NCBI RefSeq assembly: GCF_988243305.1
Contig: NZ_OZ547136.1
Reading direction: 5' to 3' (one strand)
Length of the DNA stretch: 64,000 nucleotides
Position 1 is the stretch's first letter. The number at the start of each line of letters is the position of its first letter. Positions 6,001-9,000 of the stretch are shown here, in pieces. Position numbers: made by a program.

Positions 6001-9000
6001 AACGCGCGCATCCGTGAAGTTCTGGTTATAGGTGACCGTATACATCTCTTTGTCGTTACCGGTGCGCGCCCGGTCGTCGTCGTTCGCATCCAGATACTCG
6101 CTCATGGTCATGTAGTTTTTTTCAGAGAAGCGGTATCCAGCAAACGTCACCCGACTGTTGAGTTCATCGAAATCTTTGGCATAGCTGACGCGATAAGAGT
6201 TGCCGTCCAGCGTTTTGTTGCCATACACGCTGTTATCGTCGAGTTGAACACGAGAGTGAGTGACATCAAACGCTAACGCGCCTAACAGCGCCAGGTCACG
6301 ACCGAGGCCCAGCGCCGCCGACTGGTAGTTTTCATCGGCTAACGCACCGCCGTAGAGCGACCAGCCATTGGCAATCCCCCACGACGCCTCGCCGCCCGAG
6401 AAGAAGCTACCTGCAACCTGATGGTCCCAGTTTTGTGGACGCCCCATTGTCACTTTATAACGCACCTGGCCGGGGCGAGTCAGGAACGGCATGGACGCCG
6501 TGCTGACGTCGTATTCTTGTACCTGGCCGTTTTGTTCTTCAATGCGGACATGCAGCGTGCCAGAGACGGAGTCGCCAATATCCTGAATGCGGAATGGACC
6601 TGCGGGTACCTGGGTTTCGTAAATGACACGGCCCATTTGGGTTACAGTCACTTTAGCGGTAGTGTGTGCAACACCTGAAATATCGGGGGCGTAGCCGCGC
6701 AGGTTTGGCGGTAACATTTGATCATCGGTACTGATGCTGCCGCCAATGTAACTGAAGCCATCAAAAATATCGGAGTTGAGATAATCTTCGCCCAGCGAAA
6801 GTTTGGCTTTTAATGACGGCAAGGCGCGCCAGGCGTAGTAACGACTCCACTCCCAGTTTTTTTGCGTACCGCTATCGTCAGTGTCGCCGTCATCGTTACT
6901 GCGGGTATGCTGATAATCGCTCTGCCAGTCAGCTCGTAAGCGCCACGGCCCAACGTTAACGCCGACCGTACCATTACCGCTGATGTCGTTAGTGTCATCA
7001 CCCCCATTTTCATGTCGGGTTTGCGCGTTGATACTGTAATCGGCAATAAGCCCAGGGATACCGTCATCCCAGCGCGAAGGCGGATCCCACTCGCTGTCGG
7101 TATATTCCAGATAAGCCTGCGGTACAGAAACAAGGAGTGCAGACTGGCCTAAATCGCCGCTAATTTCTGTACCTGCTAAAAGTGCCGTATTCAGACACTG
7201 ACCATCGCGGATCCATTGCAAATTCTTTGCAATATCTTCCTTCAGACCAAACTGGGCAACCAGCTCTGGCGATAAGCAGGCATATGATTTATTCGGATCG
7301 TTTTCAGTTGCGTACCAGTAGATATCGTAGTCGTCAGGTAACGGCTGATTATTTACATGAACGCGTAAGTTATATTTTCCCGGTTCTACATAGCCTTTTT
7401 GCGAAAAACGGCCCAAATCAATTTTGGTATTGCCTTTTAAATCAAGAAATCGGCCATCAAACTGAATGGTATCGTCTGCCAGGGCATTAAATGGACTTCC
7501 AGAAATTGCCAGAGCAATCCACCACGAAAGCCCCCGTAAACGGAGAAAAGAATGTTCTGGCATCGGCGTATCCATCCATGATTTTTTATAATTTAGTTAT
7601 TTGGTAGTTATAAACCCCATAACTTTGCAGCTATGGGGGAAATACATTAGAGATACGTGATCTGGAACGTCGTCAGCGTTTCAAACGGTGCCGGTGTTGG
7701 TGTTACAGCATCCGTTTCACCCACTAACCATGCTTTAAAGTTCAGAGTTTGTTTAGGCTTGCCTTTTCCCGTTGAACTGTCCTTCACGATAGGTTGCTTA
7801 ATCTCTGCTCCCAGTGCATAACCTGTACCGTGCTGGTCACCGATAACCAGGCTAACGTTTGGAATTTCAGTTCCATTATCCATGTTAGACAGAGAATAGT
7901 TATCTGCGTTAGTGGAGTACGGATTACCGGTGAATGTGGTAGCCATTGTCGTTTCTGTATTGAAATTACAGTCCTGTAAACGAATCTGGAAATCTTTTGG
8001 TGTGGTTGTTTTGCCGCCGGTTAAAGAACCCGTACCGATGCTGCCCATATCCACTTCCAGTTTATGATCGTCAGGAACAATTGAGCACGGGGAGTCTTCA
8101 ATTGTGCCGTAAAATCTCACTGTACCGTTGTTCCCTGCGGCAACGACTGATGCTGAAGTCAGCGCCCCCATGAGCATTGCCGTGGCAACTGCTGCTTTTA
8201 CAAACTTACTCATTATTTGTCCTTAAATCATAAATAATTAGAATATAAGCCAACTGAAATATTGACGTAGAGCTTCTGCAATTTTTACAGCGACTTTTAA
8301 GCAGCCAATGAACAGATTTTCAGCTCCTGAAAAAACAGGTTCCTTGATATAATATTCTTTGGCGTGCCGAACATGTTGATATTTTAATATGACTGATGCA
8401 ATTTAAATTTTCTAACATTCAAAGTTAGAAATACTTAATTAATGGACGGGGATAATAATTACTGAAATTTTTCATCTCAGTTATGAAGAATGAGTTCAAA
8501 AAAACGGCAAATGCAAAAATTCAGTGAATAAATCAAAGTCAAAAACAATCACATGGCAATGACTATCTTGTGATATTAATTTCGCAACGATATAATATTA
8601 AAACACTATAATTAATATAAAATCAAGACCCAATAATATTTTTCACTTTAGTCATTATTTACCTAAAAATGCTTCCAGAAAAATAATTTATGAATAAAAG
8701 CAAATTCTCTTTCAATATGTAAATTTTTACAAATAAAAGCGTCATGCCGTATAAAATAAAGACCATTCGATCACAAGCGGATCATTGTTAGTACAATAAG
8801 CTTGCATAAATTCAACATTGCCAGAAAAAAATAAAGGCCCGATAGATTACACCAGCGGGCCTTGTGCATGCGTATTAAATCGCTTTTGCCATCTTCAGAT
8901 TACACGGGCTCATCTGCCAGTTGAATGTGCCGTTTCCGCTTTCATCAAGCGTTACGCTGGCAATGGCCGAGGTGGTAAACATAGGCGGCGTTTCGCCCGG

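What the first reader, a model, noticed from the sequence alone, without database searches (positions are those of the whole stretch)
8214..8874. 660-bp AT-rich gene-free region upstream of yfcV containing a 23-bp palindrome
The fimbrial operon is preceded by an unusually long, very AT-rich non-coding region typical of H-NS-silenced promoters. It contains TTTCTAAC attcaaa GTTAGAAA at about 8408-8430, a candidate regulator binding site. I did not find clear flanking inverted repeats of the fim-switch type, so phase variation by inversion is not supported by what I can see.
Basis: seen in the sequence. Interest (0 to 1): 0.3.

Follow-up and report, generated by a model that had tools for sequence, protein, structure and literature searches.

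The report
H-NS-silenced yfc fimbrial promoter region
This is the ordinary, already documented AT-rich control region in front of a normally silent E. coli fimbrial operon, kept off by the H-NS protein, and the 23-bp palindrome in it is no more than chance would give.

Summary
Window 8214-8874 is the 661-bp spacer between yfcV (first gene of the yfc fimbrial operon) and sixA, both on the minus strand. GC is 29.5%, the lowest 500-bp stretch of the 64-kb window. No gene, Pfam or Rfam hit lies in it.

The palindrome exists, at 8409-8431 (one base off). A perfect 8-bp inverted repeat arises in 33% of shuffles. It and its RNA hairpin are absent from four other allele classes.

H-NS silencing is supported by published data. 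EAEC 042 has a spacer 96.2% identical to the window's, and its yfcV homologue rises 235-fold (25 C) and 4.2-fold (37 C) in a delta-hns mutant. The K-12 spacer (~60% identical) is a listed H-NS-bound "promoter island" with a sigma-70 promoter, TTGAAA-17-TATAGT.

That promoter falls in the best conserved upstream block. In the window it reads TTGGGT-17-TATAGT (8633..8605, minus strand), which predicts a leader of about 385 nt. The sixA terminator lies at 8863..8824.

Inversion is not seen in 633 full-length assemblies. The same test on fimS flagged about 5.6% of genomes.

Verdict: real, ordinary and already known. Only the palindrome reading fails.

The parts
8214..8874 (.). Whole yfcV-sixA spacer: AT-rich, gene-free regulatory region of the yfc chaperone-usher fimbrial operon
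   Evidence: GC 29.5%, lowest in the window; no annotated feature in the listed genomes; no Rfam or Pfam hit.
8824..8863 (-). sixA intrinsic terminator: hairpin 8863..8834 (GGCCCG.../...CGGGCC), then the U-run UAUUUUUUU at 8833..8825
   Evidence: -16.9 kcal/mol, z = -2.2. The scan tool missed it because it allows loops of only 3-8 nt. The K-12, MEI7, O157, FDA944 and 06-00048 alleles carry a hairpin of their own sequence at the same place; the UTI89 row is mostly gaps in that alignment.
8586..8634 (-). Best conserved distal block across five allele classes (CTTGATT ... TTAATATTATATC); the likely core promoter of yfcV
   Evidence: It aligns with the K-12 promoter TTGAAA-17-TATAGT assigned from RpoD-holoenzyme SELEX (PMC3946193).
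8605..8633 (-). Window counterpart of the K-12 promoter: -35 TTGGGT (8633..8628), 17-nt spacer, -10 TATAGT (8610..8605). Predicted start near 8598, giving a leader of about 385 nt
   Evidence: (sequence) and alignment A2/A4. Inferred by homology, not mapped.
8568..8596 (+). Best sigma-70 consensus match in the spacer, TTGTGA-17-TATAAT (10/12), pointing away from yfcV. Its -10 shares the symmetric ATATAATATTA core of the conserved block
   Evidence: A -10-like hexamer is kept on the + strand in all alleles (exact TATAAT in the window, K-12, MEI7, FDA944 and 06-00048; TATACT in O157; TTTAAT in UTI89), but the -35 is not. Function unknown.
8409..8431 (.). The 23-bp palindrome TTTCTAAC-attcaaa-GTTAGAAA, which lies inside the predicted leader
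   Evidence: P = 0.33 by shuffling. The arms are invariant in 7 close relatives. The dyad and hairpin are absent from the other alleles.
8392..8415 (-). Conserved footprint TTAGwAAAnTTAAATTGnATCAG; it overlaps only one arm of the palindrome
8350..8385 (-). Conserved footprints AAAAyATCAnCAT and CCACrCCAAAGAATA
8295..8316 (-). Conserved footprint TTCAwTGGCTG..TAwAA
   Evidence: A weak PhoP-box-like direct repeat lies at 8298-8314, 2 mismatches to a consensus recalled from memory.
8214..8250 (-). Proximal leader with the Shine-Dalgarno AAGGA. Together with the first 30 nt of yfcV it averages 0.93 column conservation across all alleles
7647..8213 (-). yfcV, the major fimbrial subunit gene and first gene of the operon (context)
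8875..9360 (-). sixA, the upstream co-oriented gene (context)

Best explanation
The spacer is the regulatory region of the cryptic yfc chaperone-usher fimbrial operon, with the sixA terminator at its upstream end. Its AT-rich, TpA-rich DNA is a platform on which H-NS nucleates and spreads. This keeps a sigma-70 promoter about 390 bp upstream of yfcV silent, more tightly at 25 C than at 37 C. Expression needs H-NS to be removed or countered. Shown: the composition, the conserved blocks, the terminator hairpin, and (published) derepression in delta-hns for a 96.2% identical spacer. Inferred: direct H-NS binding to this allele, the exact promoter and start site, and the long leader. The palindrome is an incidental, allele-specific feature of AT-rich DNA inside that leader.
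For: GC is 29.5%, the lowest in the window. All 7 alleles compared keep GC at 26-32%, a TpA frequency of 0.10-0.135 and 6.6-8.9 TAnnnT hexamers per 100 bp, against 1.0-3.4 in flanking genes. They do so although the primary sequence has drifted to about 60-65% identity. EAEC 042 has a spacer 96.2% identical to the window's, with identical palindrome arms and identical -35/-10 hexamers. Its downstream gene EC042_RS13790 is up 235.5-fold at 25 C and 4.2-fold at 37 C in delta-hns (PMC7582179 Table 2A). The K-12 spacer is one of 78 promoter islands and is flagged H-NS-bound from published ChIP studies (PMC3661553). It also holds an RpoD-holoenzyme SELEX peak, the promoter TTGAAA-17-TATAGT and an H-NS SELEX site (PMC3946193). 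That promoter falls in the best conserved distal block. Cryptic E. coli chaperone-usher fimbriae, yfc included, are described as H-NS repressed (PMC3559732). TosR or BolA overproduction raises yfcV mRNA (PMC5956150 and PMC4337573). The terminator hairpin scores -16.9 kcal/mol and is followed by a U-run.
Against: There are no H-NS occupancy data for this allele, so the delta-hns effect could be indirect. No start site has been mapped. The -35 of the homologous promoter is weak here (TTGGGT, 3/6), and TATAGT is not kept in the UTI89, O157 or 06-00048 alleles. The simple promoter scan finds 6 sites against 3.5 +/- 1.8 in shuffles, so promoter density is explained by composition alone. H-NS motif matches (4 at 2 mismatches or fewer) are what AT-richness predicts.
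Confidence: 0.78

Rival explanations
1. The palindrome is the operator of a dimeric regulator, lineage-specific or general, that controls yfc.
For: It is a perfect 8+8 dyad with a 7-bp spacer. Its arms are invariant in 7 relatives although the 61 bp around it vary more than the rest of the spacer. One arm lies in a cross-allele conserved footprint.
Against: 33% of shuffles give an equal or better dyad. With 4 substitutions in 61 bp, missing all 16 arm positions has P of about 0.3 (own arithmetic). The dyad is lost in four other allele classes. No consensus I tried matches it. No regulator gene lies next to the operon.
Confidence: 0.07
2. The palindrome acts as an RNA hairpin in the long 5' leader, affecting stability, pausing or attenuation.
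For: It would be transcribed if the start site is near 8598. The hairpin scores -9.3 kcal/mol, z = -3.1.
Against: The segment was chosen after seeing the palindrome. Homologous segments of the other alleles fold at -1.4 to -6.4 kcal/mol with z between -0.9 and +1.7 and form different stems, so there is no compensatory pattern. The whole leader has z = -1.8. There is no Rfam hit and no U-run follows the stem.
Confidence: 0.04
3. The spacer is a phase-variation switch, either invertible like fimS or Dam/Lrp-controlled like pap.
For: Many fimbrial operons are phase variable. An imperfect inverted repeat (14/17) at 8223-8239 and 8682-8698 brackets the promoter. Two GATC sites lie at 8769 and 8780.
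Against: There were 0 split or inverted matches in 633 full-length copies, against about 5.6% of genomes flagged for fimS with the same search. The inverted repeat is at chance level: 45% of shuffles reach 14/17. No recombinase or papI/papB-like gene lies within 9 kb. The GATC count equals expectation, the two sites are 11 bp apart, and they are absent from the other alleles.
Confidence: 0.02
4. A small gene or small RNA is hidden in the spacer.
For: A near-consensus + strand promoter lies at 8568-8596. Several ORFs of 20-35 aa exist.
Against: No Rfam or Pfam hit. No terminator lies downstream on the + strand. No annotation appears in the listed genomes. About 60% identity with many indels between alleles leaves no conserved reading frame.
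Confidence: 0.05

Closest known systems
K-12 yfcV/sixA 'promoter island' (Panyukov & Ozoline 2013, PMC3661553) and the constitutive yfcV promoter of Shimada et al. 2014 (PMC3946193)
   Same: Same locus, flanking genes and orientation, and similar length (680 vs 661 bp). Same composition (GC 31.9 vs 29.5%) and the same conserved blocks, including the promoter block.
   Different: Only about 60% identical. blastn finds no match across the spacer. The -35 is TTGGGT instead of TTGAAA. The palindrome is absent from K-12.
yfcV homologue EC042_RS13790 of EAEC 042, derepressed in delta-hns (Prieto et al. 2020, PMC7582179)
   Same: A 96.2% identical spacer, with identical palindrome arms and identical -35/-10 hexamers.
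   Different: 25 of 662 aligned positions differ. The paper lists the gene in a table without analysing its promoter.
fimS invertible promoter of type 1 fimbriae
   Same: An AT-rich, H-NS-bound spacer carrying the promoter of a chaperone-usher major subunit gene.
   Different: No significant flanking inverted repeats, no adjacent recombinase, and no inverted copies in assemblies.
Other cryptic, H-NS-repressed chaperone-usher operon promoters of E. coli (yad, yeh, ybg, sfm, elf, ecp)
   Same: Their upstream spacers are also listed as H-NS-bound promoter islands. Their genes are derepressed in delta-hns in strain 042.
   Different: ecp/mat has a dedicated regulator gene (MatA/EcpR). None is present at yfc.

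Membership tests
H-NS-silenced (xenogeneic-type) promoter region | AT content far above the genome average over several hundred bp, rich in TpA steps and A-tracts | tested here: met
   GC 29.5% vs 48% for the window; lowest 500 bp of the window. TpA frequency 0.097 vs 0.035-0.055 in the neighbouring genes.
H-NS-silenced (xenogeneic-type) promoter region | The downstream gene is derepressed when hns is deleted | not testable with these tools
   Published for a 96.2% identical spacer: EC042_RS13790 up 235.5-fold (25 C) and 4.2-fold (37 C) in 042 delta-hns (PMC7582179).
H-NS-silenced (xenogeneic-type) promoter region | H-NS occupancy of the DNA (ChIP, SELEX or footprint) | not testable with these tools
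   Published only for the K-12 allele (PMC3661553 and PMC3946193). A search with the H-NS nucleation motif is uninformative.
Promoter island (Panyukov & Ozoline) | Extreme density of promoter-like start points on both strands | tested here: inconclusive
   TAnnnT density is 7.1 per 100 bp against 1.0-3.4 in genes. The -35/-10 scan gives 6 sites against 3.5 +/- 1.8 in composition-matched shuffles. The original PlatProm criterion could not be run.
fimS-type invertible switch | Both orientations occur in a population or among assemblies | tested here: not met
   634 records, 634 places, 633 full-length colinear copies. The fimS control gave 4990 places in 4722 records, and 264 genomes lacked a full-length colinear copy.
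fimS-type invertible switch | Inverted repeats flanking the promoter, and an adjacent site-specific recombinase gene | tested here: not met
   The best long-range inverted repeat, 14/17, is reached by 45% of shuffles. No recombinase is annotated between smrB and mlaA.
pap-type Dam/Lrp phase switch | Two GATC sites about 100 bp apart within Lrp sites, plus papI/papB-type regulator genes | tested here: not met
   Two GATC sites 11 bp apart, which is the chance number, and absent from the other alleles. One weak Lrp match against 0.5 expected. No regulator genes.
Palindromic operator of a dimeric regulator | Dyad symmetry beyond chance, conserved across orthologous promoters | tested here: not met
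   P = 0.33. The dyad is not kept in 4 other allele classes.
Intrinsic (Rho-independent) terminator (sixA) | A GC-rich hairpin directly followed by a U-run, just after the stop codon | tested here: met
   Hairpin 8863..8834, -16.9 kcal/mol, followed by UAUUUUUUU, starting 11 nt after the sixA stop.

The most novel reading that the evidence does not exclude
The five short blocks that stay conserved, while the rest of the spacer has diverged to about 60% identity, may be binding sites for a still unidentified yfc-specific anti-silencer or environmental regulator. These blocks are 8634-8586, 8415-8392, 8385-8350, 8316-8295 and 8250-8214. The allele-specific palindrome overlapping the second block would then be a lineage-specific retuning of that site. 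The operon and spacer would be kept as at least five ancient allele classes by diversifying selection, with one recombination breakpoint fixed at the sixA stop codon.
Probability: 0.12. Interest if true: 0.35.

Novelty: already known. Interest (0 to 1): 0.1.

Why it matters
It matters little beyond annotation. The region shows how H-NS keeps a core but cryptic fimbrial operon silent. yfcV is used as a marker gene for uropathogenic E. coli, so knowing the promoter block and the conserved footprints would help anyone looking for the natural inducing signal of Yfc fimbriae. The practical result is negative: the palindrome should not be treated as a regulator site, and phase variation by inversion can be set aside.

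Tried and rejected
- **Rfam:** a scan of 7500-9600 at E <= 1 found nothing.
- **Decayed genes:** a six-frame Pfam scan found only DUF6713 at E = 0.1, which I treat as noise.
- **Terminator scan:** it missed the sixA terminator because of its loop limit; folding resolved this.
- **Long-range inverted repeat** at 8223-8239 and 8682-8698: at chance level.
- **Conserved RNA hairpin at the palindrome position:** rejected, because the other alleles do not fold there.
- **Leader fold as a whole:** z = -1.8, not remarkable.
- **H-NS nucleation motif TCGATAAATT:** 4 matches at 2 mismatches or fewer, as AT-richness predicts.
- **RcsAB box:** no match in the spacer.
- **Other transcription-factor consensus strings, recalled from memory** (CRP, FNR, Fur, IHF, CpxR, Lrp, SlyA, EvgA, ArcA, Fis, OmpR, PhoP): nothing above expectation.
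- **Scan of one genome per species with the promoter-block pattern:** it returned only an E. coli contig mis-binned in a Collinsella MAG, so it gave no view beyond E. coli.
- **The eLife promoter-island paper:** it does not mention this locus.

Full report
**What is there.** The window is E. coli chromosome with the gene order aroC-prmB-smrB-yfcOPQRS-usher-yfcV-sixA-fadJ-fadI-yfcZ-fadL. yfcV occupies 7647-8213 and sixA 8875-9360, both on the minus strand. So 8214-8874 is exactly the 661-bp spacer upstream of yfcV and downstream of sixA. Its GC content is 29.5% against 48% for the whole window, and it contains the lowest-GC 500-bp stretch of the 64 kb, 26.8%. Every listed hit row, of 634 matching complete E. 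coli genomes, shows no annotated feature under the match. Rfam and a six-frame Pfam scan found nothing.

**The palindrome.**
- In 2000 dinucleotide-preserving shuffles of the spacer, 32.6% contain a perfect inverted repeat with arms of at least 8 bp and a loop of 0-12 bp. It is what AT-rich DNA produces by chance.
- The arms are unchanged in seven closely related spacers (95.6-99.5% identical), while the flanks and loop vary. With four substitutions in 61 bp, missing all 16 arm positions has a probability of about 0.3 (my arithmetic).
- In the deeply divergent alleles (K-12, UTI89, O157, 06-00048) the dyad is gone.
- As RNA it folds at -9.3 kcal/mol. The homologous segments of the other alleles fold at -1.4 to -6.4 kcal/mol, with z-scores from -0.9 to +1.7 and different stems. 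There is no compensatory pattern.
- No transcription-factor consensus that I could recall matches it.

**Allelic structure.** This spacer sequence is present in 634 of 5426 complete E. coli genomes, always once and always on the chromosome. yfcV itself falls into identity bands: 633 genomes at 80% or more, B2 strains such as UTI89 and Nissle at about 72%, K-12-like strains at about 67%, and O157 at about 68%. The count of 633 matches the number of genomes carrying the spacer, so the operon and its spacer appear to travel together.

Against K-12, the window is 90% identical over 1-2064 and 72.7% over 2611-8248. There is no blastn match at all across 8249-8878, and identity returns to 96.8% from 8879 onward. 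Divergence begins right at the sixA stop codon. The spacer is thus the most divergent part of a hypervariable block that sits between conserved housekeeping genes.

**Footprinting across five allele classes.** Mean column conservation in the spacer is 0.66, but five blocks reach about 0.82 or more:
- **8634..8586:** CTTGATT ... TTAATATTATATC.
- **8415..8392:** TTAGwAAAnTTAAATTGnATCAG, which includes only one palindrome arm.
- **8385..8350:** AAAAyATCAnCAT and CCACrCCAAAGAATA.
- **8316..8295:** TTCAwTGGCTG.
- **8250..8214:** the proximal leader with the AAGGA ribosome-binding site. With the first 30 nt of yfcV it averages 0.93.

The first block coincides with the K-12 promoter TTGAAA-17-TATAGT. 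Shimada et al. assigned that promoter to the RpoD-holoenzyme SELEX peak in the yfcV-sixA spacer and flagged the spacer as containing an H-NS site (PMC3946193). In the window the aligned hexamers are TTGGGT (8633..8628) and TATAGT (8610..8605), with a 17-nt spacer. This predicts a start site near 8598 and a leader of about 385 nt that contains the palindrome.

This step is inference. TATAGT is not kept in the UTI89, O157 or 06-00048 alleles, whereas the neighbouring ATATTATAT core is kept. On the + strand that core gives a -10-like hexamer in every allele: exact TATAAT in five of the seven rows, TATACT in O157 and TTTAAT in UTI89. It forms the best consensus match in the spacer, TTGTGA-17-TATAAT at 8568-8596. 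The core may therefore be bidirectional.

**The sixA terminator.** The right end of the spacer holds a hairpin at 8863..8834 (-16.9 kcal/mol) followed by UAUUUUUUU, 11 nt after the sixA stop. The K-12, MEI7, O157, FDA944 and 06-00048 alleles have a different hairpin sequence at the same place; the UTI89 row is mostly gaps in that part of the alignment.

**H-NS silencing.** All seven alleles compared keep GC at 26-32%, a TpA frequency of 0.10-0.135 and 6.6-8.9 TAnnnT hexamers per 100 bp, against 1.0-3.4 in flanking genes. They do so although the primary sequence has drifted to about 60-65% identity.

The published evidence is direct enough:
- **A near-identical spacer.** EAEC 042 has a spacer 96.2% identical to the window's, with identical palindrome arms and identical -35/-10 hexamers. 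The gene immediately downstream, EC042_RS13790, is among the most derepressed genes in 042 delta-hns: 235.5-fold at 25 C and 4.2-fold at 37 C (PMC7582179, Table 2A).
- **K-12 allele.** The K-12 spacer is one of 78 "promoter islands". These regions bind RNA polymerase but give little productive transcription. This one is marked as H-NS-bound from published ChIP studies (PMC3661553).
- **The fimbrial class.** Cryptic chaperone-usher fimbriae of E. coli, yfc included, are described as H-NS repressed (PMC3559732).
- **Overproduced regulators.** TosR in CFT073 (log2 fold change 5.2) and BolA in K-12 both raise yfcV mRNA (PMC5956150 and PMC4337573).

Some things are not shown. There is no H-NS occupancy measurement on this allele and no mapped start site. 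My simple promoter scan does not exceed composition-matched shuffles (6 sites against 3.5 +/- 1.8), and H-NS motif matches are at the level AT-richness predicts.

**Phase variation.**
- All 633 full-length copies of the spacer are single colinear pieces (634 records, 634 places).
- As a positive control, the same search with the K-12 fimE-fimA spacer gave 4990 places in 4722 records. In it, 264 of 4721 genomes lacked a full-length colinear copy; one example had 55% cover in two pieces and two places. Some of these 264 may reflect divergence or deletion rather than inversion. Even so, inverted switches do show up in assemblies by this method.
- The only long-range inverted repeat that brackets the promoter (14/17; 8223-8239 and 8682-8698) is matched or beaten in 45% of shuffles.
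- No recombinase or papI/papB-type gene lies between smrB and mlaA.
- The two GATC sites (8769 and 8780) are the number expected by chance, lie 11 bp apart, and are specific to this allele.
- The K-12-type spacer in 3529 genomes gave only five extra places, which I did not examine. IS1 insertions are seen in it.

**Verdict.** The region is real, functional and ordinary. It is the H-NS-silenced regulatory region of the yfc fimbrial operon plus the sixA terminator, already documented for a near-identical spacer in strain 042 and for the K-12 allele. The palindrome as a regulator site does not. What remains open is what the five conserved footprints bind and what signal lifts the silencing.

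Noticed in passing
window 2611-8878 vs L002 (K-12); L003, L004, L005, L006, L014: The yfc operon and its spacer exist in E. coli as at least five deeply divergent allele classes. yfcV is 67-72% identical between classes and the spacer about 60-65%. The flanking genes are 97% identical or more, and one breakpoint sits exactly at the sixA stop codon. The spacer is the most divergent part, with no blastn match to K-12.
   Followed up: partly
L007 2217-2914 (strain QML220614); hit H171 (strain XJW9B277): IS1 is inserted in the yfcV-sixA spacer of at least two K-12-type strains, upstream of the promoter block. Whether it activates yfc, as IS insertions do at bgl, is unknown.
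   Followed up: no
L015 (JAIJJM010000567.1, 'MAG: Collinsella sp.'): This 2180-bp contig of a Collinsella MAG is 99.8% identical to window 6800-8980. It is an E. coli contig mis-binned into an actinobacterial MAG.
   Followed up: partly
window 8824-8863 and the homologous positions in L002, L004, L005, L006, L014: The sixA terminator hairpin has a different stem sequence in the K-12, MEI7, O157, FDA944 and 06-00048 alleles (GGCCCG, GCCCAATGA, GCCCGATG ...), yet each still forms a hairpin. This is a small natural case of compensatory change. UTI89 could not be judged because its row is mostly gaps in that part of the alignment.
   Followed up: partly
window 15259-16850: A second low-GC island (minimum 29.4%) covers a 430-aa ORF (15558-16850) between fadL and mlaA. 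It is annotated only as a hypothetical protein in strain XJ6.1. It sits at the yfdF position of K-12, whose yfdF/mlaA spacer is also listed as a promoter island.
   Followed up: no
window 4924-7575; L001 5712-8350; L002 5357-8002; L003 1502-2065: The usher gene is intact here (883 aa) but is frameshifted in the closest relative XJ6.1 and is a pseudogene (yfcU) in K-12. UTI89 yfcV is flagged in RefSeq as a partial pseudogene.
   Followed up: no
window 8298-8314 (minus strand): TGTTCA-ttggc-TGCTTA has 2 mismatches to the PhoP direct-repeat box, a consensus I recalled from memory. It overlaps a cross-allele conserved footprint. The other alleles match less well (3-4 mismatches).
   Followed up: no
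(K-12-type spacer, 3529 genomes): Five genomes give two separate places for the K-12-type spacer. I did not examine them. IS elements longer than about 840 bp would produce this, but an inversion is not formally excluded.
   Followed up: no
window 8390-8450 across 634 genomes: The 61 bp around the palindrome vary more within this allele class than the spacer as a whole: 391 genomes are 90-95% identical here (listed examples 93.4%), against about 97% for the whole spacer in the genome checked. All substitutions fall outside the palindrome arms.
   Followed up: partly
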